51,099 nt of DNA. It comes from a phage. The stretch is taken from the sequence record NC_129764.1; one strand, given 5' to 3'. Position numbers and translations under genes: made by a program. Shown here one piece after another: positions 1 through 48,216 of this stretch. Under the pieces are notes generated by a model. That model was not told where the DNA came from, did not search any database, and worked only from the letters and a program-made list of their open reading frames with translations. The stretch's first letter is position 1; every line of letters starts with the position of its first letter.

Positions 1-530
1 ATTGCATGGTGTGCAACAGTTGGTTGATTTGTTGCTGAGATTGCAATGATTGTGAGAGGGGGGATTTAGTGTTACCCGGTTCGCCTGGTGGTCATCTCCA
101 TTTTTAGCAAAACGTGCTATTCGTCTATGCGGTAGTTGTAATTGTCGTAATAGTTGTATACCATTAGGGGTGTTACAAAATGGCCCGAGAATCGATAGGC
201 CTATAGATAATAAAATATCTATATATAATAATAAGATAGATAATATATATTTATTTATTTATTATATTATATATTGGTATGTAATCGGCGTAATAGGTGC
301 AACCGCATTTTTTGAGGGTGGCATATATTTCGTGATGCATAGTATAAAAAACATACTATTCCGCGCGCATAAATAGATGTTCTTACTTTTATAGAAAAAG
401 TCGGTTGCATCGGTTGCACTGGTTACAAAAATAAAAAATGCAGCTATAGACATTGACGCGCCTGACGTTGTAGCTGTAACATGTTTTTCGAAGTTGAAAG
501 TTACACCCATAGACAACGAGGTATAGACAA
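1..530. promoter_or_regulatory. AT-rich non-coding control region with GTTACA/GTTGCA-type repeats and (TATAGATAATA)-like tracts
   Basis: No convincing ORF; AT tracts 200-290; repeated gttaca/gttgca/tgtaac words; shares GGTGTTACAAAAT (169-181) with the region at 30868-30881. Confidence 0.5.
103..121 (-). promoter_or_regulatory. dyad motif copy (rc reads AATAGCACGTTTTGCTAAA), minus orientation
   Basis: Direct sequence match to the recurrent motif; points toward window start. Confidence 0.5.
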
Positions 531-1106
531 GTGAAAACTCAGCTTAAAGAAGTGACAGAATTTGAACTCAACCTGCCGGACTATATTCGAAAGGCGATTG
601 AAATCCACCAATCAGGCGGTGAGTTCTCAATCACCGGAAAGCAAATGGTTGAAGTGTACGTCAATGAGCAGGCCGAGATTGTAAAGGCTACTCAGGGCGT
701 GGAACTTAACGATGACCAGATCGATGAGGCAGTCGTTAACGAGTACACATCTCGATCAGCCTGGTTGCTCGAGCGACTCACCGCGTCGTACGTGTCCAAT
801 ATCATCAAGCGCCACATGCTCAAGGCGCACAATAAGGCCGTATCTGTGCGAATCAACCGCGATCAGGTTGACGGGGTGACGATATTCATAACCGAACTCG
901 AAGGCGAGGAAGCAGAGAAGGCCATAGGCGAAGCTAAACAGGGCAAGAGAGGTCGCAAGCGAAAGAGCATAGCCGACACGTTCAATGCTAAGGTTGAGGC
1001 GTTCAGAATCGATTTGAGGGATTTTGAAGGTAGCAATATCTCGGTATCCGATCTCAATAAGCTGGTCGAGCAATTCCGCTCGCATTTACTGGATGAGGAG
1101 AAATAA
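531..1106 (+). CDS. hypothetical early protein (191 aa), GTG start
   Basis: Long ORF, GAGG 10 nt upstream, acidic with KRGRKRK basic patch. Confidence 0.55.
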   Translation: MKTQLKEVTEFELNLPDYIRKAIEIHQSGGEFSITGKQMVEVYVNEQAEIVKATQGVELNDDQIDEAVVNEYTSRSAWLLERLTASYVSNIIKRHMLKAHNKAVSVRINRDQVDGVTIFITELEGEEAEKAIGEAKQGKRGRKRKSIADTFNAKVEAFRIDLRDFEGSNISVSDLNKLVEQFRSHLLDEEK

Positions 1107-1364: not shown

Positions 1365-1420
1365 CCGGTCGAGCGGATCGGGTATTATCTTTTCATCGAC
1401 ACGATACAGAGGAAACGAAG

Positions 1421-1617: not shown

Positions 1618-2088
1618 ATGGCGACAATTACCGTATTCCTGGCTAAAGATGAGATTGACGATGAAATGTCATTCTTCGCATTCGAGCACAAAACCGGATC
1701 GCACTGGCACACTTACAGCCATTACACGGTTATCCCAATCGAAGCGTACGACGGCGAACTGCTCACTGATAAACTTAGTAATTTCATTGAAGATGTTAAT
1801 GCTAGCGGTGGCTGCGAGTGGAAAGAAGATCACGAAGTTATTCGAATGCTTGAGATGGTCAACCCGGTCCGTCTTGAGTCGTTCGAGCTTGATGCTGATG
1901 TGTCTATTAAGGTGAGAAAGTCTGGTGAGTTATTGCCAGGGATGCGCGTGCTGACTGGTTACTCGGGCCGTAAAGTGTGGCGCACTGTGTCGAAGGTTCG
2001 CCAGCGTTCAGAAACATGCTACAGCATATTCTTTGAGGATGGCTGGAATGTGATGGCTGGTAGCGAAGTAAAATATCTCACCAAATAG
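1618..2088 (+). CDS. hypothetical protein (156 aa)
   Basis: ORF; stop TAG is part of the motif at 2084. Confidence 0.6.
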   Translation: MATITVFLAKDEIDDEMSFFAFEHKTGSHWHTYSHYTVIPIEAYDGELLTDKLSNFIEDVNASGGCEWKEDHEVIRMLEMVNPVRLESFELDADVSIKVRKSGELLPGMRVLTGYSGRKVWRTVSKVRQRSETCYSIFFEDGWNVMAGSEVKYLTK

Positions 2089-2104
2089 CACGAATTGTTA
2101 AAAC
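2084..2104 (+). promoter_or_regulatory. dyad motif copy AATAGCACGAATTGTTAAAAC
   Basis: Sequence match; followed by hairpin ggggta-N12-tacccc containing TGATATAGT. Confidence 0.65.
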
Positions 2105-2166
2105 CGGATCGGGGTATCTTGATATAGTTACCCCATCGAAAAGAGATACCAATCAGAGGATTCACC

Positions 2167-3125: not shown

Positions 3126-3180
3126 TAAATATAGGGGTTGCGCTATAGTAACCCCATCGACAACGAACGAGGACGATAGC

Positions 3181-3686: not shown

Positions 3687-3740
3687 GGGATTTGTCCTGA
3701 CTGGTATAATCCCCACATCAACCACTAATAGGAAAGCATC

Positions 3741-4390: not shown

Positions 4391-4455
4391 CTTCCGCAAG
4401 GCCATTTGATATAGTGGCCTTATTGAAGCAGAGCAACCAATCAGAGGAATCGGCT

Positions 4456-6288: not shown

Positions 6289-6352
6289 TTGCTCAAGGGC
6301 ATTTGTTAGAATGCCCTTCGTTGAGTTAAGCAACCAATCAGAGGAATAAATC

Positions 6353-7583: not shown

Positions 7584-7639
7584 GTCGGTGGGGTGATTTG
7601 ATATAGTTACCTCATCGACAACGAAGAGAGAAAATCGAA

Positions 7640-8949: not shown

Positions 8950-9115
8950 GTTAATCATTAGAAAGATGGGGATGTTTTGCCAATCATGCAAACAATCTTT
9001 CGAGACTGAATTATCAGCAACCAGTCAGGCAGAAGCCATCACGAAAGCCAAAAAACTTTCAGGCGCTAACCTCGACACTCACAAAATAAACATTGAATTA
9101 ATTAAGGAGATTTAA
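8930..9115 (+). CDS. hypothetical small protein (61 aa or shorter from internal ATG 8966)
   Basis: ORF overlapping the previous small gene. Confidence 0.35.
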   Translation: MKRFKVKLIIRKMGMFCQSCKQSFETELSATSQAEAITKAKKLSGANLDTHKINIELIKEI

Positions 9116-9991: not shown

Positions 9992-11560
9992 ATGATTCAA
10001 TGGGAAGAACTCGACGCAACTCAGAAGTTAGCGATCAAGAAAATGAGCGAGGCCAATTTCGAAAAAATGATTCGGATCTGGTTCCAGCTTATGCAGGCGC
10101 AGCAGTTCCAGCCTAACTGGCATCACCTTTACCTATGCCACGAAGTGGAGGAAATTATTGCAGGCCGACGCGGGAATACTATCTTTAACGTCACGCCCGG
10201 TTCCGGTAAGACTGAGGTGTTCTCAATCCACCTTCCGGTTTACGCGATGCTCAAGTGTAAGAAGGTGCGAAACCTTAACGTGTCGTTTGCCGATAGCCTG
10301 GTTAAGCGTAACAGTAAGCGAGTGCGTGAGATTATCAGCAGCAACGAGTTCCAGGAGCTATGGCCCTGTAAGTTCGGCACATCAAAAGACGAAGAGATGC
10401 AAGTCCTTAACAGCGACGGTAAGGTCTGGTTCGAACTAATCTCCGCAGCGGCTGGCGGTCGAATTACAGGTTCGCGTGGCGGCTACATGACGCCAGGATT
10501 CTCCGGGATGGTAATGCTCGACGATATAGACAAGCCTGACGATATGTTCTCAAAGGTTAAGCGTGAGCGTACTCACATGCTATTAAAGAACACCATACGA
10601 TCCCGTCGTATGCACAACGAGACGCCGATTATCGCAATCCAGCAGCGACTGCACGCGCAGGATTCAACTTGGTTTATGATGAATGGAGGTATGGGTATTG
10701 AGTTTGATCAGATCTCGATTCCGGCACTAGTAACTGAGGAATACGGAAAGACGCTTCCTGACTGGTTACAACCATACTTCGAGCGCGACGTTTTGTCGTC
10801 TGAGTATGTGGAATTGGATGGAGTTAAGCATTACTCATTCTGGCCCAGCAAGGAGAGTGTTCACGACCTATTGGCTTTGCGCGAAGCGGACCAGTACACC
10901 TTTGATTCTCAGTATCAACAGAAGCCGATAGCGCTTGGTGGCTCCGTGTTTAACTCGGAGTGGTGGACTTATTACGGAAGCAGCCTTGACGCTGACGAGC
11001 CAGATCCGGGTAAATATGATTACCGTTTTATCACCGCTGATACCGCTCAGAAGACAGGTGAGCTAAACGACTACACAGTCTTTTGTTTATGGGGTAAGAA
11101 AAACGATAAGGTTTACTTTATCGACGGCATTCGCGGAAAGTGGGAAGCGCCTGATATGGAGAAACAATTTACCGCCTTCGTGAATCAGGCATGGAGGCAC
11201 AATAAATCAATGGGTGTGCTTCGCAAAATCTACGTGGAAGATAAGGCGAGCGGGACGGGCTTGATTCAGAACTTAAGGAAAAAGACTCCGATCTCAATCA
11301 CACCATTGCAGCGTAACAAAGATAAAGTTACCCGAGCTATGGATGCTCAGCCAGTAATTAAGGCCGGGCGCGTGGTTCTTCCAGAAGAGCACCCTATGCT
11401 TGCGGAAATCATCGCAGAACATAGCGCCTTCACTTACGATGACACCCATCCGCATGATGATATCGTCGATAACTTCATGGATGCGGCGAACATCGAATTG
11501 CTGACCATTGATGATCCTATCGAGAGAATGAAGCGACTCGCCGGGATGGTTAAGCGGTAA
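9992..11560 (+). CDS. terL: terminase large subunit (522 aa)
   Basis: Walker A-like TPGSGKT; size and position before portal. Confidence 0.85.
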   Translation: MIQWEELDATQKLAIKKMSEANFEKMIRIWFQLMQAQQFQPNWHHLYLCHEVEEIIAGRRGNTIFNVTPGSGKTEVFSIHLPVYAMLKCKKVRNLNVSFADSLVKRNSKRVREIISSNEFQELWPCKFGTSKDEEMQVLNSDGKVWFELISAAAGGRITGSRGGYMTPGFSGMVMLDDIDKPDDMFSKVKRERTHMLLKNTIRSRRMHNETPIIAIQQRLHAQDSTWFMMNGGMGIEFDQISIPALVTEEYGKTLPDWLQPYFERDVLSSEYVELDGVKHYSFWPSKESVHDLLALREADQYTFDSQYQQKPIALGGSVFNSEWWTYYGSSLDADEPDPGKYDYRFITADTAQKTGELNDYTVFCLWGKKNDKVYFIDGIRGKWEAPDMEKQFTAFVNQAWRHNKSMGVLRKIYVEDKASGTGLIQNLRKKTPISITPLQRNKDKVTRAMDAQPVIKAGRVVLPEEHPMLAEIIAEHSAFTYDDTHPHDDIVDNFMDAANIELLTIDDPIERMKRLAGMVKR

Positions 11561-12901: not shown

Positions 12902-13652
12902 TGGCGTTGCAACACAGTGGCGCTATCCTGAAATGAGCGAGCGCGCAATGTCGCGCCCCTTACAGGATGTTGCAGCCAGACTAACAGAAAGAATGCGTGA
13001 CGAATTAAAGCCGATGAAATTTGACGCTACCGACGAAGAGATAGATCAGACAGAAAGGTCATTGCTTGATTACGTCGAATCACTCATCGCTCCGATTATT
13101 GGTTCTCTATCATCCGTTGCGCTCGCGATCTATAAATTCAACTCTAAGCAGTGGCTGCGCATCGCTCGCAATGCTGGAGGTAAGAAGAATCAAGCCGTGA
13201 TGCTACTTGCCCTGATTGGTCCTACCGCTGCCGAAAGCTGGTACTCAGGACAATATAATCTGTGGCGATCGCAGGTGACTACTTCTATCAGGAAATTTGC
13301 CGCCAACATGGTTACTGATTTCACTGATAAACTTCGTGCGGCATCCGGTCAGGGTAAAAGCAAGGATTTTGTTGTTGAACTTGCTAAGGAGCGATTTGGT
13401 ATTTACCGTAGCTGGGCCAAAAATAGAGCGTCGGGAATTGTCGGAACCTGGAACAGTAGACTGATGCGGCAGCGCATAAAAGACGCTGGTGTATCTTACT
13501 ATTTCTGGCGCGGGGTGATGGATTTACGCGAACGTGAAAAACATGTAAGATGGGAAGGTAAGCGCATAGCGGTAGATTCCGATCACGTATTCCCGGGTGA
13601 AGAATACAACTGCCGCTGTTGGGCTGTTCCAGACTTTTCTACAGGAGATTAA
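12891..13652 (+). CDS. minor head / head morphogenesis protein (253 aa)
   Basis: Synteny after portal; overlaps portal stop. Confidence 0.55.
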   Translation: MKINGVATQWRYPEMSERAMSRPLQDVAARLTERMRDELKPMKFDATDEEIDQTERSLLDYVESLIAPIIGSLSSVALAIYKFNSKQWLRIARNAGGKKNQAVMLLALIGPTAAESWYSGQYNLWRSQVTTSIRKFAANMVTDFTDKLRAASGQGKSKDFVVELAKERFGIYRSWAKNRASGIVGTWNSRLMRQRIKDAGVSYYFWRGVMDLREREKHVRWEGKRIAVDSDHVFPGEEYNCRCWAVPDFSTGD

Positions 13653-17517: not shown

Positions 17518-17931
17518 ATGGATCAAGAAACATTAAACAAAGTGGTCGAGCAAATGAGAAAGCTGGTTCCGGCACTTCGCAAGGTTCCAGACGAAACGCT
17601 TTATGCATGGGTAGAAATGGCTGAGCTATTTGTATGCCAGAAGACCTTTAAAGATGCATACGTCAAGGCGCTTGCTCTTTATGCATTGCACCTTGCTTTC
17701 CTTGATGGGGCGCTAAAAGGTGAAGATGAGGATCTTGAATCGTACTCACGACGCGTTACGTCATTCTCCCTGAGCGGTGAATTTAGCCAGACTTTTGGAG
17801 AGGTGACGAAGAACCAGTCAGAGAACATGATGCTTTCGACGCCGTGGGGTAAGATGTTCGAACAGCTTAAAGTGCGACGCCGTGGTCGATTCGCATTAAT
17901 GACAGGACTCCGTGGAGGATGCCACCAATGA
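17518..17931 (+). CDS. head completion / head-tail connector protein (137 aa)
   Basis: Synteny; ATG with RBS aggtgg. Confidence 0.5.
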   Translation: MDQETLNKVVEQMRKLVPALRKVPDETLYAWVEMAELFVCQKTFKDAYVKALALYALHLAFLDGALKGEDEDLESYSRRVTSFSLSGEFSQTFGEVTKNQSENMMLSTPWGKMFEQLKVRRRGRFALMTGLRGGCHQ

Positions 17932-19886: not shown

Positions 19887-19906
19887 AACCAATCAGGAGA
19901 AATATC

Positions 19907-20580: not shown

Positions 20581-23454
20581 ATGGTTGATAAGGTAGCAGG
20601 TCTATCGCTTGACGTTGATGTGTCGACAGTACAGCGCGCCGTCAAGTCATTGAAAGAGTTTTCAAAAGCTAACGACCAAGCCGCTGACTCTATGGGGTCT
20701 TTAATCAATGAGGCCGAGGTTGCAAAACAGAAGGCTAAAGAACACGCTGAGCAACTTAAGCGCCAGCGCAAAGAGTACGAGGCTGTAGAAAAGGCAATCG
20801 ATCCTACAGTATCAAAAATGGAAAGGCTGAAGATTGCATCTCAGCAGCTTGATAAACTCTGGCAAAAGGGCATTGTTCCAGATGAAACATTTTTCCGTTT
20901 GGGTGAAATGCTGGACATGCAAAATGCAAAACTTGCTCGCAGCCGGGCCATGCTTACTGAAGAGGGGCAGGCAGCATTGCAGGAAGCGAAAGCAAAAGAG
21001 CAGGCAGCAGCGAAAAACAAAGCGTTCATGGATTCCCTTAACAGTCAGGTTAACGCTATTGGCAAAACTCACGCAGAGTTAATGGAACTGAAAGCGGCTC
21101 AGCTTGGGCTATCAAATGAAGCAGCGCCACTGATCGCAAAACTGAAAGAGCAGGGTCGAGCCATGAATGCCGCAGGTATTAGCGCGGGGCAATATAGGCA
21201 GGCAATGCGAATGCTTCCTGCACAGATTACCGACGTCGTTACATCTCTTGCGTCCGGTATGCCAGTTTGGATGGTTGCCATCCAGCAAGGCGGTCAAATT
21301 AAGGACTCGTTCGGAGGGATCGGGAATACGTTTAAGGTATTGCTCAGCTATATTAATCCGGTCACAGTTGGCGTTGGTGTTCTTGTCGGCTCTTTAGGAC
21401 TTCTTGCGAAAGCTGGTTATGACTCTTACAAGTCAATAACTGATATGCAGAAGGCTCTTGTTGAGACTGGAGGTTACGCAGGAGTCACGGCTGAAGAACT
21501 TGATTCTGTTGCTAAAAAGGTGGCTCAGACGAGCAACTCAACAATTTCAAGCATTCGTGAGATTGTTACTGAACTTGCCAGTACGGGGAAGTATACGCGA
21601 GAGCAGATTCAGAACATCACAAAGGCTACCGCTGAGTGGTCGACAGCAACCGGAAAATCAGCAAGTAAAATCATCGCTGAGTTCGATAAAATCGCAAGCG
21701 ATCCTGTAAAGGGTCTGGCTAAACTTAACGAGCAATACAACTTTTTAGAAAAAGGTCAACTGACATATATCGATACGCTAAGCCGTACTAAGGGTGAAAC
21801 GGAGGCAGTGTCTGAAGCAACAAAATTATTCGCCGAAGTTATGGAGAAGCGAATGAAGTCGATCGCAGACAATGCCACTCCTCTTGAAAAAATGTGGAAC
21901 GATATTAAGCAGTGGGCCTCTGATGCGTGGGGGTGGGTTGGGGATCATACTCTCGGAGCATTAAACCTGATTATTGACGTAGTTCAGGGTACGGTAATTC
22001 AGGTAAAAATGATTCTGGCGAAGGGCGATGAGTACATCTCAAACTTTATAGCCTCTGCAATTAAGGCTACGCAGTCTCTGCCTGGAATGAGTGATTTCGG
22101 CGCTGATGTACTAAAGGAACAGGAGAATATTGTAAAAAGTTCTCGTGACAACTACGATCAGTTAGCTTCAGAGCTTGATGCCATCAACGCCCGTGTTGAA
22201 AAAGGTGAGATGGGATACATTGAAGCAATGAAGCAGCGCCGTACTCTTGAAAAGCAGTATAGCCAGGAAACTAAGGACGCTATCAAGGAAGAAGCTGAAG
22301 AGATCGAAAAGCGAAACCGTGAACGAAATAAGCAGTCGAAAATTTTACGCTCACCTACAGAGCAATTCGATAAGGAGTTAATTTCACTCAAAGCACAGCT
22401 TAAGGTTTTGCAGGAGCACAAGGAGATAGGGCAAAAACTATCAGCACAGAGAAAGGCGCTGTTTACGACTGAGGCTACAATTGCCGTTCTTAGAGAAGCT
22501 AGTTCTAAGCGTCAGTTATCTGCGGAAGAAAAAGCACTACTTGCAAACCAGGAGAAAGTTTTAGAGCTTGCGAAACAAAAGGCCGAGATTGGCGATCAGA
22601 TTGTTAAGCAGCAGCAGTTGAACGCTCTTACTGATAAATCACTGAAGTTTGTCAATGATTTGACGGCAGCTACAGAGCAGCTAAACGCGTCTCGCGGGAT
22701 GAGCACCCGAGAAATGGAGCGACAAGCGGAGTTGGCTAAGATCACCACTGACTATATTAATGCGGGTGGCAGCGAAGGGGATGAAAAACTCCAGAACATG
22801 ATCAAGGCGCAAAATGATTACTATGCTGCGGAAGATGCCAAGCGTGCTGACTGGTTGGCAGGTGCTGAAAGCGCATTTGCAGATTACGGCGATTCCGCAA
22901 TGGATATGTATGGTAACGTATATGATATAGCGTCAAGTTCACTTAACGGAATGAGTGATATGATGACCCAATTCCTGACTACAGGTAAGGCAAACTTTGA
23001 GGACTTTGCGAAAAACATCATTAGCATGATTATAAAGATGATTGCTCAGATGGTAATCTTCAATACGATCTCAGGCATGATGGGCGGTAAGACGTGGAGC
23101 TTTGCTGGAGTGGCGTCGTCTGGTGCTTCTGTGGCATCACAGGCAACCCCTACGCCTGCCGCCTCCGGTTTTAGGTCTTTATCATCGGGCGTTGCTGTTA
23201 CCTCGCTTGCTGCCGCGGCTGGTAGTGTGGCAACATCTGGATTTAACGCATCTAAAGCAGCGCCGAAGGCAGTAAACCAATCAGCAGGTGGGACGGTCGT
23301 TGACGTTAGGGGCATGGAGGTTAAAGTTGACAATGGTTCAGATCCGAGAGGAATTTCTCAGGGCGTAGAGATGATGTTCAAAAAAATGATTCGCGAATCT
23401 TGTTCTCAGGGCGGTGAGGTTTACAATTACATTCAGGAAAAAACAGGAGGCTAA
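20581..23454 (+). CDS. tail tape measure protein (957 aa)
   Basis: Very long alpha-helical, coiled-coil-rich ORF with Gly/Ser/Ala-rich C-terminal region. Confidence 0.9.
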
Positions 23455-24672: not shown

Positions 24673-25403
24673 TTAATGCAAAAATTAAACTTGAAATCAT
24701 GACTCACGCTCAAGAAGAATACCCCCGAGAATGCTGCGGGGTAGTTACCCAAAAAGGACGCGTGCAAAAATACCATCGCATTGATAACGTGCATCGCGAT
24801 CCTGAGAATCATTTCATGATGGACGCAGTGCAATACGCATGTATTGAGGATGACGCAGACTCAACCACGATTGCGATCGTTCACAGCCACACAGGAGACG
24901 GGGCTACAACTCTTCCCAGTGCTCACGACACATGCATGTGCAACGAGATGGAAGTTACCTGGATTATTGTTAGCGTACCGGAAGGAGATATGCGATTTGT
25001 TAAGCCTGAGAAATTACCTCTGATTGGTCGACCGTGGTCGTTAGGCTCATTTGACTGTTACGGTCTAGTAATGGCGTGGCACAAAGAGCACGGCGTAGAG
25101 TTACGCGATCGCCGATTGAATTTTGAATGGTGGAAACCTGAGTACGGAATTAATCTCTATCAGGATTATTACAAGCAAGATGGATTCGTTGAGATTCCAG
25201 ATCAGAACAACCCATCATTCGGGGATATGGTAATCATGCAGATAGGGCAAAATGTTCCGGTATGGAACCACGCAGGGATTTACCTGGGTGATAATCAGAT
25301 CTTGCATCACGCCTTTGGCAAACTTTCGAGACGTGATATCTATTCCGGCTGGTATCAGGATCATACTGTTTTAATTGTTCGCCATAAGGATCTTAAATTA
25401 TGA
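24669..25403 (+). CDS. tail assembly protein (K-like; MPN/JAB plus NlpC/P60-like, 244 aa)
   Basis: ECCGVV and HSHT segments N-terminally; synteny; ATGA overlap start. Confidence 0.75.
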   Translation: MINAKIKLEIMTHAQEEYPRECCGVVTQKGRVQKYHRIDNVHRDPENHFMMDAVQYACIEDDADSTTIAIVHSHTGDGATTLPSAHDTCMCNEMEVTWIIVSVPEGDMRFVKPEKLPLIGRPWSLGSFDCYGLVMAWHKEHGVELRDRRLNFEWWKPEYGINLYQDYYKQDGFVEIPDQNNPSFGDMVIMQIGQNVPVWNHAGIYLGDNQILHHAFGKLSRRDIYSGWYQDHTVLIVRHKDLKL

Positions 25404-25999
25404 ATGATGTAAAAGTAATCAAATTATCCGGTTCACTTGGAAGGCGCTTCGGCGTCTTCCACCGATTCGCTGTTGACTCTTACCCGGAAGCTATCAGGGC
25501 GTTATCCAGTCAGGTAGATGGATTTAAAGAATACATGCAAAGCGAGGTCGGCTCGCGTAGCAAGTTTGCAATATTTGTGGACGGCGTTAACGTAGGCCAC
25601 CATGAAGAGGAAAAATTCAAGTGTGCTAAAGAGATAAGAATCGTCCCGATCCCGACTGGCTCTAAGTCTGGAGGTCTATTCCAGGTAGTATTGGGCGCGG
25701 CAATAATGGTTGCCGCATTCTATACTGGCGGCGCATCTCTGGCGTTAATGGGTACAATGTCATCATCTCTGTTTATGATGGGCGGCGCTATGGTGCTGGG
25801 AGGTGTAATGCAGATGATTTCACCGCAGCCGGGTGGCGCAAATTTTGAGGTTCAGTCCAGTAAAAACAAGCCTTCGTACGCATTCGGCGGTGCTGTCAAT
25901 ACGACGGCAGCGGGATACCCCCTTCCGGTCCCGTATGGATATCGTGCTGGAGGTGGCGCAACATTCTCGGCAGGTTCTTACGCTGAGGATATGAGTTAA
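25400..25999 (+). CDS. tail assembly protein (I-like, 199 aa)
   Basis: Synteny; Gly/Ala-rich hydrophobic C-terminal half. Confidence 0.65.
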   Translation: MNDVKVIKLSGSLGRRFGVFHRFAVDSYPEAIRALSSQVDGFKEYMQSEVGSRSKFAIFVDGVNVGHHEEEKFKCAKEIRIVPIPTGSKSGGLFQVVLGAAIMVAAFYTGGASLALMGTMSSSLFMMGGAMVLGGVMQMISPQPGGANFEVQSSKNKPSYAFGGAVNTTAAGYPLPVPYGYRAGGGATFSAGSYAEDMS

Positions 26000-26076: not shown

Positions 26077-29000
26077 ATGATTCAAAAAGTGATAAGTGGT
26101 TCGAAAGGCGGCTCTCCTAAGCCTCACAATCCAGTTGAAATGGAAGATAACCTGATCTCAATCAACAAAATAAAGATTCTTCTGGCAGTATCTGATGGCG
26201 AGATTGACGAAACATTCAACCTCAAGCAGCTGATGTTTAACTCAGTCCCGGTGCAAAACGAGGATGGCTCTTTCAACTTTGAAGGCGTAACGGCAGAGTT
26301 CAGGTCGGGCACGCAAACTCAGGAATATATCAAGGGGATGGAAGATAGCTCTAGTGAGGTAACTGTAAACCGTGAGGTTACTACAGATAACCCATACACG
26401 ATCTCAGTAACCAACAAAACGCTTTCGGCAATCCGTATCAAAATGTTTATGCCTCGCGGCGTACGAATTGAGAGCAACGGAGACAAAAACGGCGTTCGAG
26501 TTGAGTACGAAGTGCAGCAAGCGGTTGATGGCGGTTCGTTTGAAAAGGTTCTATCTGACGTAATCGAAGGCAAAACAATGTCAGGTTATGATCGAAGCCG
26601 ACGCATAAACCTTCCGAGCTTCAACAATCAGGTGATATTCAGAGTCGTTCGTAAAACTCCAGACTCTAGCGACTCGAACGTTGTTGACGCGATTCAGGTA
26701 AAGAGCTATGCCGAGGTGATTGATGCAAAATTCCGTTACCCTCTGACTGGTCTTCTTTTCGTCGAGTTCGATTCGAAGATGTTCCCAAACCAGTTACCTA
26801 CGATCTCAATTCGTAAGCGATGGAAGATTGTAAACGTTCCTTCGAACTACGATCCAGAATCACGAACTTATAACGGGAATTGGGATGGAACTTTTAAGAA
26901 GGCGTGGACGAATAATCCGGCTTGGGTGCTTTATGACCTGATGATTAATCAGCGTTATGGTCTGGATCAGAAGGAGCTTGGAATATCTGTCGATAAATGG
27001 GCGCTATATGAGGCGGCGCAATATTGCGACCAGATGGTCCCTGACGGCAAAGGCGGCACAGAGCCTCGCTACCTTTGCGACGTGATAATTCAATCTCAGA
27101 CTGATGCGTACAAGGTGATTCGAGATATTTGCTCAATCTTCCGTGGAATGAGTTTTTGGAATGGTGAAAGCATTTCGGTAATCATCGACAGGCCACGTGA
27201 GCCTGCGTACATCTTCACTAACGACAACGTTGTTAACGGTGACTTCTCCTATACTTTCGCAAGCGAGAAAAGTATGTACACGACGTGCAACGTGATGTTT
27301 GATGATGAACAAAACATGTATCAGCAGGACGTTGAGCCAGTATTCGATCGAGAAGCCACTCTACGGTTCGGGAATAACGTAACAAGCATTACAGCGATCG
27401 GTTGCACACGTCGAAGTGAAGCTAACCGTCGCGGACGATGGATTCTGAAAACAAACCTTCGCAGCACTACGGTAAACTTTGCTACCGGGCTTGAGGGTAT
27501 GATTCCGACAATTGGAGATGTTGTAGCGATAGCTGATAACTTCTGGTCAAGTAACTTGACTATGAACCTGTCAGGGCGTTTGCTCGAAGTGTCTGGAAGT
27601 CAGATTTTCCTGCCGTTCCGCGTTGATGCTCGCGCAGGTGACTTTATTATCGTAAATAAGCCCGATGGCAAGCCCGTGAAGCGCACAATCTCAAGTGTTA
27701 GTGCGGATGGTAAGACTATAGAGGTTAACATCGGCTTTGGCTTTCCTGTGAAGCCTAACACGGTATTCGCAATCGACCGTACCGACATTGCGTTGCAGCA
27801 GTACATCGTGACCAAAATCGACAAGGGTGATGATGATGAGGAATTTACCTACAAAATCACGGCAGTGGAGTACGATCCTAACAAGTACGATGAGATTGAT
27901 TACGGAGTTAACATCGACGACCGACCGACGAGCATCGTTGAGCCAGATCAGATCCCTAAACCGGAAAACGTGAAAGTGTCCTCAGAGTCGAGAATCGTTC
28001 AGGGGATGAGCGTAGAAACGATGATTGTTAGCTGGGATAAAGTGCCTTACGCAGTTTTCTATGACGTCCAGTGGCGAAAGGATAACGGCAACTGGCAAAA
28101 TGTACCGCAGACGGCAAATAAAGAGGTATACGTTGAAGGCATTTACGCTGGAAACTATCAGGTTCGCGTGCGATCCGTCGCTGGTTCAGGCACGACTTCA
28201 GGTTGGTCAAATATCGTAGCTGCGACGCTGACGGGTAAACAAGGTGAGCCGGGACGACCGATTAACCTTACAGCTACGGATGATGTTGTTTTTGGTATCC
28301 GTACAAAATGGGGGTTCTCTGATGGTTCTGGAGATACGGCCTACACGGAGTTGCAGCAGTCACCGGATGGAACAGTGGATAGCGCAAGTTTGCTTTCTTT
28401 GATTCCGTATCCGCAGCATGAGTATTATCACTCACCGATGCCTGGAGGGAATATTGTGTGGTATCGGGTAAGGACGGTTGACAGGATCGGTAACGTATCT
28501 CAGTGGACTGATTTTGTCAGAGGCATGGCATCAACAAACGTTGACGATATCATCGGAGAGATTTCTGTCGATATCGAAAACTCGCCGGGTTACGAGTGGC
28601 TTGTTGATAACGCAACAGACAACGCGGCGCAGAACGCAGCTAACGCAGAGGCAGCAATAGAAAACGCGCTCGCCAATGACAAAGATGCGATCTACATGAA
28701 GAAGGAGAACGGAAAACGAAAAGCTGAGTACACGAAATCACTTAAACTTATTGCTGATGAGACGCAGGCGCGAGTGACGTCGATCGAGCAGTTGAAGGCA
28801 AGTTTTGACGATCAGATTAGCGCAAGCAATAGCGAGTTGCGTGAAGTTATAGCGACCGAGACTGGAGCGATATCGCGTGAAATTGACCAACTCAAGGCTC
28901 AGATTGGTGACGATATTCAGGCGAGCTTGACAGATATCCGAGAGGCTATCGCAAACGAGACTGAGGCCAGAACTCAGGCCGACTTAACGTTAAACGCGAG

Positions 29001-29529
29001 GCTTGGAAATAACGAGGCGGCACTTGCTCAAAAACTTGACTCTTGGAGTAATGCGAGTTCTACCGGGGCGATGTACGGCGTTAAGCTGGGGCTGAAATAC
29101 AACGGGCAGGAATACAGCGCAGGAATGGCTATGTCCCTGATTGGTTCCGGCGCGGCTGTTAAGGCTCAGATTCTTTTTGAGGCGTCACGATTTGCAATCA
29201 TGACCGGGATGAATGGAAAGACACAATACCCGTTTGTTGTTGAGAATGGTCAGGTTATTTTAAGTAGCGCGATCATTAAAAACGGATTCATCACTAATGC
29301 TATGATTGGAAACGTTATTCAATCGAATAACTTCTCTTCAGGTAGTGCTGGATGGATGGTTAACAAGAATGGATCGGCTGAGTTTAATGCGGTTACTGTC
29401 AGAGGCAAACTTTACGCAAGTAACGGTGAGTTTGCATTCAACGGAACGGGTAATACCGTTCAGATTAACAATAACGGCATCACGGTAAACTTACCTGGTG
29501 GCGGGAAAGTTGTAGTGGGGAGGTGGTAA
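26077..29529 (+). CDS. tail tip / host specificity protein (J-like, 1150 aa)
   Basis: Size and position after the I-like gene. Confidence 0.85.
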   Translation: MIQKVISGSKGGSPKPHNPVEMEDNLISINKIKILLAVSDGEIDETFNLKQLMFNSVPVQNEDGSFNFEGVTAEFRSGTQTQEYIKGMEDSSSEVTVNREVTTDNPYTISVTNKTLSAIRIKMFMPRGVRIESNGDKNGVRVEYEVQQAVDGGSFEKVLSDVIEGKTMSGYDRSRRINLPSFNNQVIFRVVRKTPDSSDSNVVDAIQVKSYAEVIDAKFRYPLTGLLFVEFDSKMFPNQLPTISIRKRWKIVNVPSNYDPESRTYNGNWDGTFKKAWTNNPAWVLYDLMINQRYGLDQKELGISVDKWALYEAAQYCDQMVPDGKGGTEPRYLCDVIIQSQTDAYKVIRDICSIFRGMSFWNGESISVIIDRPREPAYIFTNDNVVNGDFSYTFASEKSMYTTCNVMFDDEQNMYQQDVEPVFDREATLRFGNNVTSITAIGCTRRSEANRRGRWILKTNLRSTTVNFATGLEGMIPTIGDVVAIADNFWSSNLTMNLSGRLLEVSGSQIFLPFRVDARAGDFIIVNKPDGKPVKRTISSVSADGKTIEVNIGFGFPVKPNTVFAIDRTDIALQQYIVTKIDKGDDDEEFTYKITAVEYDPNKYDEIDYGVNIDDRPTSIVEPDQIPKPENVKVSSESRIVQGMSVETMIVSWDKVPYAVFYDVQWRKDNGNWQNVPQTANKEVYVEGIYAGNYQVRVRSVAGSGTTSGWSNIVAATLTGKQGEPGRPINLTATDDVVFGIRTKWGFSDGSGDTAYTELQQSPDGTVDSASLLSLIPYPQHEYYHSPMPGGNIVWYRVRTVDRIGNVSQWTDFVRGMASTNVDDIIGEISVDIENSPGYEWLVDNATDNAAQNAANAEAAIENALANDKDAIYMKKENGKRKAEYTKSLKLIADETQARVTSIEQLKASFDDQISASNSELREVIATETGAISREIDQLKAQIGDDIQASLTDIREAIANETEARTQADLTLNARLGNNEAALAQKLDSWSNASSTGAMYGVKLGLKYNGQEYSAGMAMSLIGSGAAVKAQILFEASRFAIMTGMNGKTQYPFVVENGQVILSSAIIKNGFITNAMIGNVIQSNNFSSGSAGWMVNKNGSAEFNAVTVRGKLYASNGEFAFNGTGNTVQINNNGITVNLPGGGKVVVGRW

Positions 29530-30531: not shown

Positions 30532-30755
30532 TCCTTAGTTTTGACTGAGATCTTACCGCTAAAGTTGCCCTGATTGTCGTCTGATGAAAGGCCTTTGAAT
30601 CGCATGTCAACTTCTCCAGCAGGTACTTTCTTACCGTCAACGAATCGCATCATGCAAGATCCGTAAGCGTAAGTAACACAGTCGCCATTCTTAAGATTCT
30701 GAGCGCAACCAGTCAGGATGAACGCAGCGGCGATAATGGTGATTAACTTTTTCAT
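30525..30755 (-). CDS. lipoprotein, Cor/Llp-like superinfection exclusion candidate (76 aa)
   Basis: Signal peptide with lipobox LTGC; small size; location next to tail genes as in FhuA-dependent phages. Confidence 0.55.
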   Translation of the reverse strand: MKKLITIIAAAFILTGCAQNLKNGDCVTYAYGSCMMRFVDGKKVPAGEVDMRFKGLSSDDNQGNFSGKISVKTKEW

Positions 30756-31282: not shown

Positions 31283-32347
31283 ATGTTCCAGGTATTCACA
31301 TCAAACCAGCTTTCTAATGACGAGTATCATAGCAATGAAGGTTGGGCGGCAGAGTATGTAAGCGGATCGAGCCTTGCAGAAATTTATCAGACCTGCCCGG
31401 CTAACTGGCGATTCAAGAAAAACGAGACAACGAAAGCGCTGGAGTTCGGTACTCAGTCTCATACCAACTTCGAGAGTCGCGATCTGTTTACTGCAACTTA
31501 TGCTCGTTGTCCGGCTCCGTCAGAGTTTAAAGATCTCATTACTTCGCAAGCCGCTCTGGCATCGAAATTAAAATCATTCGGCCTGAAAGGTACATCCGGT
31601 AAGCAGTACCCCGATCTCATCAAAATGATGGTTGATTGTGGTGAGGAACTAAACGTTCAATACCTGATTGAACTGATCGCAGAAGCTGAGGCGCGCGCTG
31701 AAGGAAAGAAACTCGTTGACGCTGACAAATACGATGCATGCATGAAAATGAGAGCCATTCTTGAGCAAAACCCGGATCATGAAGCGTGCATCAACAGTGA
31801 AACGGCGCAGCGTGAGATTTCAATCTTCGGTGAGATATCCGGCGTCAAAGTTAAGGTTCGACTCGATCATCTTGACTACAAAGAGAATGTCCCGGGTCGT
31901 GTGCTGACTGGTTATGATGAGAATGGCGATCCGGTTTATGAAGACGTAATTTTCCCGGAAGCGCTGATTATAACTGACTTCAAAACCACGATGAGCGCCA
32001 ACCCGTTAGAGTTCCCGAGACTGGCATACAATCACGGGTATTATCTGAAAATGGCCTTGCAGCATGACCTGCTACGACGCGCAATCCAGGCTGGCGCTTT
32101 TGAGGGTAACTTCCCGGAAGATATCCCGATCGTAGTTCGATTGCTGGCTCAGGAGAAAAAAGAGCCTTACATCGCACTTGCTTACCGTATGACTATGGAG
32201 CAAATCAGGATCGGTCGTAGCCAGTATGTTAGCGTAGTCCACACTTACAAGGCTTGCTCTGAAATGGATGTTTGGCCTGGGTACGCTGGCGACGCAAGCG
32301 AGATTGAACTTGAAACGCCATCATGGGTGCGTTACCAAAATAAGTAA
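31283..32347 (+). CDS. putative recombination exonuclease (PD-(D/E)XK-like, 354 aa)
   Basis: Position upstream of Erf and SSB; D-x-K-like segment ITDFKTT. Confidence 0.5.
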   Translation: MFQVFTSNQLSNDEYHSNEGWAAEYVSGSSLAEIYQTCPANWRFKKNETTKALEFGTQSHTNFESRDLFTATYARCPAPSEFKDLITSQAALASKLKSFGLKGTSGKQYPDLIKMMVDCGEELNVQYLIELIAEAEARAEGKKLVDADKYDACMKMRAILEQNPDHEACINSETAQREISIFGEISGVKVKVRLDHLDYKENVPGRVLTGYDENGDPVYEDVIFPEALIITDFKTTMSANPLEFPRLAYNHGYYLKMALQHDLLRRAIQAGAFEGNFPEDIPIVVRLLAQEKKEPYIALAYRMTMEQIRIGRSQYVSVVHTYKACSEMDVWPGYAGDASEIELETPSWVRYQNK

Positions 32348-32421
32348 ACGGCACAAATAGCTAAACAAATAATTAATGAGGTGTTATAATGCACCTCATA
32401 CACCAATCAGGAGAAGTTAAG

Positions 32422-40809: not shown

Positions 40810-40865
40810 TACCCGGCGAAAGTCGGGTATAGTTATTTCATCAAAACGAAATGAGGAATAAGAAT

Positions 40866-44478: not shown

Positions 44479-44539
44479 AATGCTTTCCTTCGGGTCGCCT
44501 CGTTTCGATGAAACAAATATACCCGATACGAGATCGGGT

Positions 44540-48200: not shown

Positions 48201-48216
48201 TATTCCCCCTAACCAG

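What the first reader, a model, noticed from the sequence alone, without database searches (positions are those of the whole stretch)
2141..2166. Conserved translation-initiation contexts: AACCAATCAG(A)GGA and CATCGACAACGA leaders
Beyond the Shine-Dalgarno core, a 14-mer AACCAATCAGAGGA recurs upstream of unrelated genes: 2148-2160, 4435-4448, 6332-6345, 19887-19900, 32403-32416, and on the minus strand at 47150-47163, 49413-49426 and 50948-50961. A second leader, (C)CATCGACAACGA, follows the promoter hairpin in at least seven cassettes (near 511, 1396, 3163, 7606, and on the minus strand near 44500, 48800, 49890). Conservation well beyond what ribosome binding requires suggests a shared 5' UTR module, possibly a site for a translational regulator or a determinant of transcript processing.
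Basis: seen in the sequence. Interest (0 to 1): 0.45.

Follow-up and report, generated by a model that had tools for sequence, protein, structure and literature searches.

The report
T1-phage leader motif is genome-wide signal
The sequence that looked like a special ribosome-binding leader in this T1-like phage is one of about 30 copies of a direction-sensitive 9-base DNA word (ACCARTCAG) spread over the whole genome of every T1-family phage examined. It is therefore probably read on DNA, perhaps by the replication machinery, and not by the ribosome.

Summary
The window is a near-complete T1-like phage (Drexlerviridae). All eight listed sites carry ACCAATCAG directly 5' of GGAG/AGGA and an ATG. 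The CATCGA(C)AACGA leader is present, in looser form, in the listed cassettes.

The first motif is a subset of a genome-wide word, ACCARTCAG. It has 29 copies here against about 0.8 expected, and 22 are not upstream of a start codon, on both strands. Enrichment survives synonymous-codon shuffling. It is found in eight Drexlerviridae genomes (19-30 copies each), but not in lambda, two outgroup phages or E. coli.

The copies obey a polar geometry. Within 800 bp, same-orientation and convergent pairs are almost absent (1 and 0, against 35 and 15 expected). Back-to-back pairs are enriched (31 against 15). Only a tracking or strand-specific DNA process can tell these arrangements apart.

SD-adjacent copies range from 0 to 8 between genera. 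The leaders are unstructured and show no special 16S complementarity. Priming by the phage Zn-ribbon primase is my best guess, at about 0.3.

The second leader begins at the predicted +1 of the known TAGCAC-repeat promoter cassettes and resembles the T7 A1 start.

The parts
2086..2101 (+). TAGCACGAATTGTTAA direct repeat of the promoter cassette upstream of the finding
   Evidence: The repeat family is published for TLS, T1 and Rtp (PMC11447400).
2111..2134 (+). Inverted repeat GGGGTA/TACCCC bracketing the TGaTATAGT extended -10 (hexamer at 2123-2128)
   Evidence: Read directly. The -10 lies a fixed 21 nt after the repeat in 21 cassettes.
2134..2146 (+). CATCGAAAAGAGA: CATCGA-type start of the transcript (predicted +1 is the A at 2135)
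   Evidence: The start site is inferred from spacing and has not been mapped.
2148..2156 (+). ACCAATCAG, SD-adjacent copy (AGGA at 2157-2160, ATG at 2167); this is the finding itself
4436..4444 (+). ACCAATCAG, SD-adjacent copy (ATG at 4457)
6333..6341 (+). ACCAATCAG, SD-adjacent copy upstream of polynucleotide kinase (ATG at 6353)
19888..19896 (+). ACCAATCAG, SD-adjacent copy upstream of the gene corresponding to T1 ST40 (RefSeq label: tail length tape measure protein; ATG at 19907); preceded by a reversed TAGCAC repeat
32402..32410 (+). ACCAATCAG, SD-adjacent copy upstream of the Erf gene (ATG at 32422)
47153..47161 (-). ACCAATCAG, SD-adjacent copy (gene 46725-47141, - strand)
49416..49424 (-). 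ACCAATCAG, SD-adjacent copy (gene 49023-49403, - strand)
50950..50958 (-). ACCAATCAG, SD-adjacent copy (small ORF starting at 50937, - strand)
607..615 (+). ACCAATCAG, intragenic copy
1951..1959 (-). ACCAGTCAG, intragenic and antisense to the gene; back-to-back partner of the copy at 2148 (198 bp away)
3697..3705 (-). ACCAGTCAG in a promoter spacer; on the + strand its TGGT end supplies the TG of the extended -10, CTGACTGGTATAAT
9020..9028 (+). ACCAGTCAG, intragenic copy
10758..10766 (-). ACCAGTCAG in the large terminase gene; the orthologous site is kept in all 7 other Drexlerviridae genomes compared, with A/G swaps
13212..13220 (-). ACCAATCAG, intragenic copy
17813..17821 (+). ACCAGTCAG, intragenic copy
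22847..22855 (-). ACCAGTCAG in the tape-measure gene; back-to-back with the copy at 23276 (430 bp away)
23276..23284 (+). ACCAATCAG in the tape-measure gene
25020..25028 (-). ACCAATCAG, intragenic; kept in 6 of the 7 other genomes; back-to-back with the copy at 25505
25505..25513 (+). TCCAGTCAG, intragenic; the only copy in the window not preceded by A
26743..26751 (-). ACCAGTCAG in the J-like tail gene
29137..29145 (-). ACCAATCAG in the J-like tail gene
30708..30716 (+). ACCAGTCAG, antisense to a - strand gene
31904..31912 (-). ACCAGTCAG in the RecE-like gene; back-to-back with the copy at 32402 (499 bp away)
33282..33290 (-). ACCAGTCAG, intragenic copy
37894..37902 (-). ACCAATCAG in the ResIII-type helicase gene, antisense
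39573..39581 (-). ACCAATCAG in the VRR-NUC gene; left member of an 81-bp back-to-back pair that is kept at the same spacing in T1, BHUENT9 and A134
39653..39661 (+). ACCAGTCAG; right member of the 81-bp back-to-back pair
41385..41393 (-). ACCAATCAG, intragenic and antisense
46181..46189 (-). ACCAGTCAG in the DUF3987 helicase gene, sense orientation
48212..48220 (+). ACCAGTCAG, antisense to a - strand gene
508..519 (+). CATAGACAACGA leader, downstream of the only canonical sigma-70-like promoter in this region (453-482); here the motif is not at +1
1394..1404 (+). CATCGACACGA at the predicted +1 of the cassette at 1346
3155..3166 (+). CATCGACAACGA at the predicted +1 of the cassette at 3107
7613..7624 (+). 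CATCGACAACGA at the predicted +1 of the cassette at 7565
40839..40849 (+). CATCAAAACGA at the predicted +1 of the cassette at 40791
44500..44510 (-). CATCGAAACGA at the predicted +1 of the cassette at 44558-
48792..48807 (-). CATCAACAGCAAGCGA, a weak CATCGA-type leader of the cassette at 48855-
49883..49893 (-). CATCGAAACGA at the predicted +1 of the cassette at 49941-

Best explanation
Two different things were merged in the finding.

(A) AACCAATCAG is not a ribosome-binding extension. It is a copy of a 9-base, strand-polar DNA word, ACCARTCAG (next base not T, then a T-poor flank). T1-family phages keep about 20-30 copies spread over the whole genome, on both strands, mostly inside genes.

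Shown: its excess, its independence of reading frame and orientation, its restriction to the family, its turnover with maintained density, and its geometry. Each copy is followed on its 3' side by about 800 bp or more free of any other copy, and only back-to-back copies lie close together.

Inferred: because convergent and divergent inverted pairs are treated differently, the word must start (or stop) something that tracks along DNA or acts on one strand. My preferred concrete reading (about 0.3) is a start signal for DNA synthesis read by the phage's T7-gp4-type Zn-ribbon primase. In primer sense the word begins ACCA, which is the T7 primer.

Copies in the short intergenic regions overlap other signals. 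The CAG end abuts the GGAG/AGGA of the Shine-Dalgarno site. On the other strand the TGGT end supplies the TG of extended -10 elements. The promoter-leader cassettes carrying the word have been duplicated and exchanged. Together these produce the look of a conserved translation-initiation context.

(B) CATCGA(C)AACGA is the predicted transcription start plus initial transcribed sequence of the same promoter cassette family. It sits at -10 hexamer + 6 nt, then ATCGA..., like T7 A1, whose transcript starts ATCGAGAGGG.
For: Identity: the window is a T1-like phage, collinear with T1.

Word excess:
- Window: 30 CCARTCAG, 29 preceded by A and none followed by T.
- Other genomes: T1 26, TLS 29, Rtp 19, Klebsiella mtp9 26, EcoP_06 20, BHUENT9 22, A134 25; lambda 1.
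- 72 IMG/VR T1-like loci average 5.5 copies per 10 kb, against 0.61 for random sequence.
- 100 kb of E. coli has only 5 ACCARTCAG.

Not codon usage: a synonymous-codon shuffle gives 3.3+-1.6 copies in coding sequence against 21 observed in the window. Pooled over 7 genomes it gives 35.1+-5.3 against 135, with excess in all 5 stop-free frame/orientation classes.

Geometry, 7 genomes and 171 sites, pairs closer than 800 bp:
- same orientation: 1, against 35.5+-5.7 expected
- convergent: 0, against 15.5+-3.9
- divergent: 31, against 15.4+-4.0
The replicate on 1.25 Mb of related loci gives 10/151, 11/65 and 111/65. The E. coli sample shows same-orientation pairs 46 and 219 bp apart.

Turnover: 22 of 25 alignable window sites are kept in T1, but only 3-7 of 15-17 in other genera that nevertheless hold 19-29 copies. 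A/G swaps occur at orthologous sites.

SD-adjacency is clade-variable, 0-8 copies. The pnk leader loses the word but keeps the rest of the leader.

Overlap with the extended -10 occurs at window 3697 and at TLS 2975 and 47206.

Candidate reader: the 311-aa protein has Zn_Ribbon_Prim, E 6e-15. T7 primase turns 5'-TGGTC-3' into pppACCA (PMC2910064).

Part B: a fixed 21-nt spacing from the TAGCAC repeat to the -10, then 6 nt, then ATCGA, in 8 or more cassettes. T7 A1 starts ATCGAGAGGG and T7 A3 starts ATGAAACGAC.
Against: No experiment links the word to any protein.

Against the primase reading specifically:
- DnaG/T7-type primases are known to read trinucleotides, not 9-mers (PMC2910064).
- The base before the word, which would be the 'cryptic' template base, is only weakly conserved (A about 40% at non-SD sites).
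- Lagging-strand priming alone does not explain why convergent pairs are avoided.
- Two outgroup phages with a roughly 31% identical primase have no such word.

Against a purely DNA-level view:
- All 8 sense-oriented intergenic copies in the window abut the SD exactly and use only the A variant. That is tighter than economy of space alone predicts, so a translational side-role cannot be excluded.
- Exceptions to the spacing rule are concentrated in SD-adjacent copies of small early genes. The SD-adjacent copies may therefore be partly a separate, cassette-driven phenomenon.

Against part B: the cassette promoters are not called by a canonical sigma-70 scan, because there is no -35 at 16-18 nt. 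No start-site map was found, so +1 is inferred. At 508 the motif is not at +1.
Confidence: 0.6

Rival explanations
1. AACCAAUCAG is a 5' UTR RNA module read by a translational regulator, a translational enhancer or a processing enzyme. The intragenic copies are unrelated.
For: Eight copies sit exactly 5' of the SD, all in the sense orientation and all using the A variant. They lie in unstructured, A/C-rich RNA. A published analogue exists, the start-associated sequences of Cluster K mycobacteriophages (PMC3203893). Some spacing-rule exceptions are SD-adjacent copies.
Against: The identical 9-mer, including the flanking A and the 'not T' position, is 3 times commoner outside leaders. It is selected in both orientations and all frames. 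The SD-adjacent copies take part in the same polar geometry, for example 1951/2148 and 31904/32402. BHUENT9 has 22 copies and none is SD-adjacent. The word is lost from an otherwise conserved leader. There is no 16S complementarity beyond chance. The genes served are a mix of early and late genes with unrelated functions.
Confidence: 0.12
2. The word is a Chi-like control or self-marker signal. A helicase-nuclease, either the phage's ResIII-type helicase with the VRR-NUC nuclease or RecE-like exonuclease, or a host enzyme, tracks along DNA and is switched off or on when it meets the word in one orientation. This would spare phage DNA while host DNA is degraded.
For: The word is polar and over-represented, roughly 11 times denser in the phage than in the E. 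coli sample as a 9-mer. It lies on both strands, as expected for a permuted genome with variable ends. Its geometry requires a tracking process. The phage encodes ResIII/Helicase_C, VRR_NUC and PDDEXK proteins. T1 is known to degrade host DNA, and T1-family genomes carry almost no E. coli Chi (0-3 copies).
Against: A Chi-type barrier works equally well as a convergent or a divergent pair, so the strict asymmetry is not predicted. No recognition protein is known, and nothing here was tested biochemically.
Confidence: 0.18
3. The copies are binding sites for a phage DNA-binding regulator, such as the Cro-like HTH protein next to the primase gene. They would act as dispersed operators or roadblocks, like the stoperators of Cluster A mycobacteriophages or the C1 operators of P1.
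For: There are many asymmetric copies, about 4 times denser in non-coding DNA, some inside promoters and leaders. A weak Cro/HTH match was found in the 174-aa protein.
Against: Simple binding cannot distinguish convergent from divergent pairs, and it does not explain the site-free zone of about 800 bp. The copies are not oriented with transcription, roughly half being antisense. There is no clustering at promoters. The phage is strictly lytic.
Confidence: 0.07
4. The leader similarity has no function. It reflects only common descent of duplicated or exchanged promoter-leader cassettes, and the intragenic copies reflect codon usage (CTG-ATT-GGT, GAY-TGG).
For: Cassettes with extended similarity exist, for example 4373, 6270, 47220- and TLS 5201. 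L078 has tandem 204-bp units that each carry the word. E. coli coding DNA holds 3 times the random number of CCARTCAG. Most antisense copies are in the L-I/T-G or D-W reading frames.
Against: The synonymous-shuffle null is exceeded 4- to 9-fold in each genome. The flanking A, the 'not T' position and the geometry are absent from the E. coli sample. Density is maintained through positional turnover across genera.
Confidence: 0.05

Closest known systems
21-nt direct repeat aaATAGCACnnnTTGnTAAAA of T1-like phages (Kropinski and colleagues, TLS reannotation 2024, PMC11447400)
   Same: It is the same repeat, in the direction of transcription, about 76 nt upstream of start codons. Both leader motifs of the finding lie downstream of it.
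   Different: The section of that paper read here describes only the repeat and leaves its function open (stoperator, enhancer or UP-like). That section does not mention the -10-bracketing inverted repeat, the CATCGA start, or the ACCARTCAG word.
Start-associated sequences (SAS, GGGATAGGAGCCC) of Cluster K mycobacteriophages (PMC3203893)
   Same: A conserved asymmetric word containing or abutting the SD core, a few bases upstream of the ATG of unrelated genes, specific to one phage group, with unknown function.
   Different: SAS copies are almost all at gene starts, in one orientation, and confined to the non-structural half of the genome. Here 22 of 30 copies are away from starts, on both strands, genome-wide, and show a spacing geometry.
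Primase recognition sites of T7 gp4 (5'-TGGTC-3' giving pppACCA) and other DnaG-type primases (PMC2910064)
   Same: The phage encodes the same Zn-ribbon domain type. The word in primer sense starts ACCA. Copies lie on both strands at Okazaki-scale spacing of about 3.4 kb per strand. It would be a polar, strand-specific start signal.
   Different: Known sites are 3-5 nt with an essential cryptic 3' base. Here there are 9 specified bases and no strongly conserved preceding base. No biochemical test has been done.
Chi (GCTGGTGG) and other polar over-represented genome words such as KOPS and uptake sequences (from my own knowledge)
   Same: A short, asymmetric, strongly over-represented word, mostly inside genes, read by a tracking enzyme and specific to one genome type.
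   Different: The sequence differs. It is private to a phage family and is not shared with the host. Its orientation is balanced, with no skew to one strand. The back-to-back-only close-pair rule has, to my knowledge, not been described for Chi.
Initial transcribed sequence of strong early coliphage promoters (T7 A1, A3)
   Same: C|ATCGA at +1 (A1: ATCGAGAGGG) and AAACGA (A3: ATGAAACGAC) match the T1-family consensus ATCGA(C)AACGAGG.
   Different: The T1-family promoters lack a -35 at the canonical spacing. Many use a TGn extended -10, a distal conserved repeat and an inverted repeat around the -10. Their start sites have not been mapped.
Mobile promoter/stem-loop cassettes (PeSLs) of T4-type phages and stoperators of Cluster A mycobacteriophages (from my own knowledge)
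   Same: Repeated regulatory cassettes flanking small early genes in plastic genome regions, and dispersed asymmetric short sites.
   Different: The sequences are unrelated. Stoperators are oriented with transcription and bound by a repressor of a temperate phage.

Membership tests
Extended Shine-Dalgarno or rRNA-pairing translational enhancer | Complementarity of the non-SD bases to 16S rRNA (the 3' tail or another accessible region) | tested here: not met
   The best match to E. coli rrsH is 7 bp including G-U pairs, and 174 of 300 shuffled words do as well. The bases lie 5' of the SD, where at most 3 nt of the 16S tail remain to pair.
Structured 5' UTR element or processing site | A shared RNA secondary structure in the leaders | tested here: not met
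   The eight leaders fold no better than dinucleotide shuffles, with z from +0.05 to +1.25.
Start-associated sequences (Cluster K type) | Virtually all copies within a few nt of a start codon, in one orientation | tested here: not met
   8 of 30 copies are start-linked and 22 are elsewhere, on both strands. BHUENT9 has 0 of 22 start-linked.
Start-associated sequences (Cluster K type) | The word contains or abuts the SD core and is private to one phage group | tested here: met
   The forms are CCAATCAG|GAG and CCAATCAG|AGGA. The word is enriched in all 8 Drexlerviridae genomes, but not in lambda, K191, seszw or E. coli.
DnaG/T7-type primase recognition site | The genome encodes a primase with the Zn-binding recognition domain | tested here: met
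   PF08273 Zn_Ribbon_Prim, E 6.1e-15, in the 311-aa protein at 35796-36731(-).
DnaG/T7-type primase recognition site | A trinucleotide core with an essential cryptic 3' template base | tested here: not met
   Nine specified bases. The position that would be cryptic is A in only about 40% of non-SD sites.
DnaG/T7-type primase recognition site | Primers are actually started at the site | not testable with these tools
   This needs a primase assay or RNA-DNA junction mapping.
Chi-like signal | A polar word over-represented in the genome it protects, relative to foreign DNA | tested here: met
   29 copies of the 9-mer per 51 kb, against 5 per 100 kb of E. coli and 1 in lambda. Polarity is shown by the geometry.
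Chi-like signal | Recognition by a translocating helicase-nuclease that changes its activity | not testable with these tools
   Candidate proteins are present, but there is no functional data.
Stoperator or dispersed-operator sites | Copies oriented with the direction of transcription | tested here: not met
   Intragenic copies are 88 antisense to 47 sense, pooled over 7 genomes.
T1-like TAGCAC-repeat promoter cassette | The leader lies downstream of TAGCACnnnTTGnTAA at a fixed distance from a -10-like hexamer | tested here: met
   21 cassettes have a 21(+-1)-nt spacer. 7 of the 8 SD-adjacent words, and the CATCGA leaders other than the copy at 508, lie in them.
Canonical sigma-70 promoter | A -35 hexamer 16-18 nt upstream of the -10 | tested here: not met
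   The scan calls none of the cassettes. TTGnTA lies 22 nt from the -10. Many cassettes have a TGn extended -10 instead.
Initial transcribed sequence at +1 | The transcript 5' end maps to the A of CATCGA | not testable with these tools
   The position is inferred from the -10 + 6 nt spacing. No start-site data were found.

The most novel reading that the evidence does not exclude
T1-family phages carry a private, strand-polar genome code. ACCARTCAG is kept at about one copy per 1.7 kb, with a site-free zone of about 800 bp or more downstream of every copy. The code would tell a phage DNA machine where to start or stop on phage DNA only. That machine could be a primase with an unprecedented 9-base specificity, or a helicase-nuclease with its own Chi. 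This would be a new way for a lytic phage to tell its own DNA from host DNA. The translation-initiation look of some copies would then be a by-product.
Probability: 0.35. Interest if true: 0.85.

Novelty: new variant of a known kind. Interest (0 to 1): 0.62.

Why it matters
T1 is a classic coliphage and a notorious laboratory contaminant, yet its transcription and replication signals are essentially unmapped. The leader motif turns out to be the visible tip of a family-wide, direction-sensitive DNA word with strict spacing rules. That gives a concrete and cheap handle on an unknown step of T1 biology, which could be priming, nuclease control or another tracking process. The handle is 9 defined bases, about 30 sites, and clear predictions for nascent-strand mapping, nick mapping, protein binding and synonymous recoding. 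The result also warns annotators that conserved bases next to a Shine-Dalgarno site need not concern translation. Finally, it supplies predicted +1 positions for about 20 T1-type promoters that standard sigma-70 scans miss.

Tried and rejected
1. Extension of SD pairing, or epsilon-like pairing with 16S rRNA: no complementarity beyond chance.
2. A shared RNA structure in the leaders: none.
3. A codon-usage artefact (L-I/T-G and D-W codons): this explains part of the background, since E. coli has 3 times the random count. It does not explain the 4- to 9-fold excess over synonymous shuffles, the flanking A or the geometry.
4. A MotA-box-like promoter element: there is no -10 or -35-like signal at any fixed offset within +-50 nt of 170 sites.
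5. Origin-like pairs flanking easily melted DNA: the DNA between back-to-back pairs is not AT-rich.
6. Gene-anchored placement as the cause of the geometry: reading off positions by eye, intragenic copies sit at relative positions of roughly 0.15-0.95 within genes, with no 5'/3' rule (coordinates). I did not compute this formally.
7. A shared word in outgroup phages with a homologous primase (Vibrio K191, Salmonella seszw): none found.
8. IHF or DnaA-like host sites, Chi, IS10/Tn5 ends (CTGAYT...) and restriction sites: considered from memory only. The flank data (T-poor at +1 to +5) argue against the IHF consensus. The others have no support.
9. Literature searches on the motif strings, on T1 promoters and on T1 start-site maps found only the TAGCAC repeat description.
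Full report
**What the window is.** Megablast places the window among T1-like siphophages (Drexlerviridae, Tunavirus). The best matches are SA30RD, DELF2, SH6 and ADB-2 at about 90-94% identity over most of the length. Gene order is collinear with phage T1. It is essentially a whole 51-kb genome. Rightward early genes lie at the left end, followed by structural genes, then recombination and replication genes, and leftward early genes at the right end.

**Checking the observation.** CCAATCAG occurs 16 times exactly, against 1.8 expected. The 14-mer at up to 2 mismatches occurs 9 times against 0.43 expected.

The second motif is looser than stated. Only 3 copies lie within one mismatch of CATCGACAACGA. 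A degenerate CATC[GA]A..A(A)CGA is present at every place named and at a few more.

**The cassettes.** Seven of the eight SD-adjacent copies, and most of the CATCGA leaders, lie downstream of one repeated cassette; the copy at 508 is the exception. The cassette is TAGCACnnnTTGnTAA, then a spacer of 21 (+-1) nt, then a -10-like hexamer, often preceded by TGn. The hexamer is bracketed by an inverted repeat whose sequence differs from cassette to cassette.

The TAGCAC repeat is published for TLS, T1 and Rtp, with its function left open (PMC11447400). A canonical sigma-70 scan does not call these cassettes, because no -35 lies at 16-18 nt. Their being promoters, and the +1 positions I give, are therefore inferences.

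**The second leader.** In eight or more cassettes the sequence after the -10 hexamer is six bases ending in C, followed by ATCGA(C)AACGA(GG). The motif thus starts at the position where E. coli RNA polymerase normally initiates.

The annotated T7 A1 transcript starts ATCGAGAGGG after ...CAGCC, and T7 A3 starts ATGAAACGAC. The simplest reading is that CATCGA(C)AACGA is the start site plus the initial transcribed sequence of one promoter family. It would be conserved by descent and by selection for efficient initiation and an unstructured A/C-rich leader. At 508 the motif lies about 19 nt downstream of a different, canonical promoter, so the rule is not universal.

**The first motif is a genome-wide word.** An unbiased 8-mer ranking put CCAATCAG and its one-base neighbour CCAGTCAG among the most over-represented words of the window, T1 and TLS, just behind the TAGCAC repeat. 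Other single-base neighbours are at background level.

Of the 30 CCARTCAG copies in the window, 29 are preceded by A and none is followed by T. Random expectation for the 9-mer is about 0.8. Twenty-two copies are not upstream of a start codon: 21 lie inside genes and 1 in a promoter spacer, on both strands.

Counts per genome are as follows:

| Genome | CCARTCAG copies |
|---|---|
| Window | 30 |
| T1 | 26 |
| TLS | 29 |
| Rtp | 19 |
| Klebsiella phage mtp9 (Webervirus) | 26 |
| EcoP_06 (Hanrivervirus) | 20 |
| Enterobacter phage BHUENT9 | 22 |
| A134 (Tempevirinae) | 25 |
| Lambda (control) | 1 |

Seventy-two IMG/VR loci recovered through the polynucleotide kinase gene average 5.5 copies per 10 kb, against 0.61 for random sequence.

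Pooling 170 sites from seven genomes, information is confined to four places: the base before the word (A in 75%), the eight core positions, the next base (not T) and the one after it (a purine). Positions +1 to +5 are T-poor. Nothing promoter-like lies at any fixed offset within 50 nt.

**Is it codon usage?** Partly, but not mainly. Many antisense copies read CTG-AYT-GGT (Leu-Ile/Thr-Gly) or GAY-TGG (Asp-Trp) on the coding strand. A 100-kb sample of E. coli holds 20 CCARTCAG, three times the random number.

However, the E. coli copies are mostly GCCAGTCAG, and only 5 have the flanking A. Shuffling synonymous codons within each gene keeps both protein sequence and codon usage. It gives 3.3+-1.6 copies in the window's coding DNA against 21 observed, with similar results in T1, TLS and Rtp. 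Pooled over seven genomes it gives 35.1+-5.3 against 135. The excess appears in all five frame/orientation classes that do not create a stop codon. The word is therefore selected as DNA, irrespective of frame and of the direction of the gene.

**Geometry.** This is the most informative result. The table counts pairs of copies closer than 800 bp in seven largely independent genomes (171 sites), with random placement as the expectation.

| Arrangement | Observed | Expected |
|---|---|---|
| Same orientation | 1 | 35.5+-5.7 |
| Convergent (5'-CCARTCAG ... CTGAYTGG-3') | 0 | 15.5+-3.9 |
| Back-to-back (5'-CTGAYTGG ... CCARTCAG-3') | 31 | 15.4+-4.0 |

Neighbouring back-to-back copies are typically 74-800 bp apart. 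Convergent neighbours start at 826 bp (median 1571), and tandem neighbours start at 712 bp (median 2111).

On the redundant 1.25-Mb set the same pattern holds. The counts are 10 against 151 for same orientation, 11 against 65 for convergent and 111 against 65 for back-to-back. The exceptions are mostly SD-adjacent copies in arrays of small early genes. The E. coli sample has same-orientation copies 46 and 219 bp apart among only 20 sites.

Convergent and divergent pairs are both inverted repeats. A protein that merely binds, or that loops DNA, cannot tell them apart. Only something that moves along the DNA from the site, or chemistry confined to one strand such as a primer or a nick, can do so. 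I therefore infer that each copy starts (or, in mirror image, stops) a directional DNA transaction with a reach of about 0.8 kb or more. A second copy inside that reach would be redundant or harmful.

The DNA between close back-to-back pairs is not AT-rich. By eye, copies show no fixed position within genes.

**Turnover.** Of the window's copies that can be aligned through the encoded protein, 22 of 25 are kept in T1. Only 3-7 of 15-17 are kept in each of the six other genera, although those genomes carry 19-29 copies.

A few sites are ancient. These include the site in the large terminase gene, two in tail genes, and an 81-bp back-to-back pair in the VRR-NUC gene that keeps identical spacing in four genomes. 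A and G interchange at orthologous sites. Number and spacing are thus maintained while positions change. This is what is expected of a distributed signal and not of gene-specific regulation.

**Why some copies look like ribosome-binding contexts.** SD-adjacent copies number 8 in the window, 5 in T1, 2 in TLS, 1 in Rtp, about 6 in the Klebsiella phage, 1 in EcoP_06, and 0-1 in BHUENT9 and A134.

In the orthologous pnk leader the cassette is conserved across Tunavirus. However, the word is CCAATCAT in two relatives, and it is decayed or deleted in more distant cassettes that keep the neighbouring cgttgagttaagcaa. Some close relatives lack the cassette altogether.

Intergenic copies are not confined to SD sites. 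At window 3697, and at TLS 2975 and 47206, the word lies on the other strand immediately upstream of the -10 hexamer, where its TGGT end provides the TG of an extended -10 (CTGAYTGG-TATAAT, -TACAAT, -TATCAT). The 3' flank of the word is T-poor and purine-rich at all sites, and GGAG/AGGA satisfies that preference.

My reading is that, in a genome that is 90% coding, the word is fitted into the short spacers by overlapping it with other signals. Cassettes carrying it were then duplicated and exchanged. The eight leaders fold no better than shuffles, and the word has no special complementarity to 16S rRNA. Nothing therefore points to an RNA-level role. It cannot be excluded, because all eight sense intergenic copies in the window abut the SD exactly and use the A variant.

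**Who reads the word?** This is unknown. Candidates encoded in the window are:
- a primase with the T7-gp4/P4-alpha Zn-ribbon (E 6e-15)
- a DUF3987 helicase
- a ResIII/Helicase_C helicase next to a VRR-NUC nuclease
- a RecE-like PDDEXK exonuclease
- Erf
- a weak Cro-like HTH protein

I favour the primase, at about 0.3. T7 primase reads 5'-TGGTC-3' and makes pppACCA (PMC2910064), and the word in primer sense begins ACCA. It lies on both strands at about 3.4 kb per strand, and a primer is a polar, strand-specific start.

Several points count against this. Known DnaG-type primases read three to five bases. The would-be cryptic base is barely conserved. Lagging-strand priming alone does not predict avoidance of convergent pairs. 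Two outgroup phages with a primase about 31% identical lack any such word.

A Chi-like switch for a phage or host helicase-nuclease (about 0.18) fits the privacy and polarity of the word, but again does not predict the asymmetry. A dispersed operator for the HTH protein (about 0.07) fits worst.

**Comparison with what is known.** The cassette repeat is published. The closest published analogue of a conserved word abutting the SD is the start-associated sequence of Cluster K mycobacteriophages (PMC3203893), but that word is confined to gene starts in one orientation. Polar over-represented genome words (Chi, KOPS, uptake sequences, primase sites, stoperators) are a known kind. A word private to a lytic phage family, with balanced orientation and a back-to-back-only rule for close pairs, was not found in the literature I could search.

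**Verdict.** The translational interpretation is only partly right. What is actually there is (i) the start-site region of a known promoter cassette family, and (ii) a previously undescribed, family-wide, polar DNA word, of which the leader copies are a minority.

Noticed in passing
window, 21 cassettes, e.g. 2086-2134, 3107-3155, 4373-4420, 6270-6317, 47220-47173(-): In the TAGCAC cassettes the -10 hexamer sits in the loop of a 5-7-bp inverted repeat. The repeat's sequence differs between cassettes while staying complementary (GGGGTA/TACCCC, GGCCA/TGGCC, GGGCAT/ATGCCC, GGTCA/TGACC). The -10 lies a fixed 21 nt after the repeat, too far for TTGnTA to act as a normal -35. The TLS paper section read here does not mention the inverted repeat.
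   Followed up: partly
window 16103-16118(-) and 19869-19884(-); T1 around 18830: Reverse-oriented copies of the TAGCAC repeat lie just upstream of the major capsid gene and of the gene at 19907 (counterpart of T1 ST40), pointing against the late genes. At 19884 the reversed repeat directly abuts the ACCAATCAG word.
   Followed up: no
window 32389-32422; L001 (T1) 31484-31519: The T1 RefSeq annotation starts the Erf gene at 31484. The conserved word + GGAG + ATG context indicates the ATG 33-36 nt downstream, equivalent to window 32422, as the likely start. The annotated start would lie inside the promoter and leader.
   Followed up: partly
L002 (TLS) around 49700-49760: A tandem TAGACCAATCGGTC x2 lies next to the rightmost early promoter. 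ACCAATCGG differs from the word by one base.
   Followed up: no
window 180-300: A very AT-rich stretch of TATA/ATAA repeats with overlapping palindromes lies between the two divergent early arms. TATATATA is itself over-represented in T1, Rtp and A134. It could be an origin or a pac-proximal region.
   Followed up: no
window, 15 sites, e.g. 36, 1650, 7111, 18107, 18324, 18671: TGAGATTG is also over-represented, with 15 copies against 2.3 expected. Unlike ACCARTCAG it shows same-orientation clustering. It may reflect codons (GAG-ATT).
   Followed up: no
L078, 5302-5991: One IMG/VR T1-like contig has three tandem units of 204 bp, each carrying GCTCTGATTGGTTT (an SD-adjacent word on the other strand). 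This is direct evidence that word-bearing leader/gene cassettes are duplicated.
   Followed up: no
L085 and L086 (E. coli K-12, 2 x 50 kb): The host sample holds 20 CCARTCAG, three times the random number, almost all as GCCAGTCAG (CTG-ACT-GGC). Dinucleotide-shuffle expectations therefore understate the coding-sequence background for this word.
   Followed up: yes
L083 (Salmonella phage seszw): A different dispersed word, roughly AATCTAC(A/G)TCA, is over-represented (14 copies, z about 12) in this Skatevirus, which shares the primase/helicase/Erf/ExoVIII module. It shows no spacing rule at this sample size.
   Followed up: no
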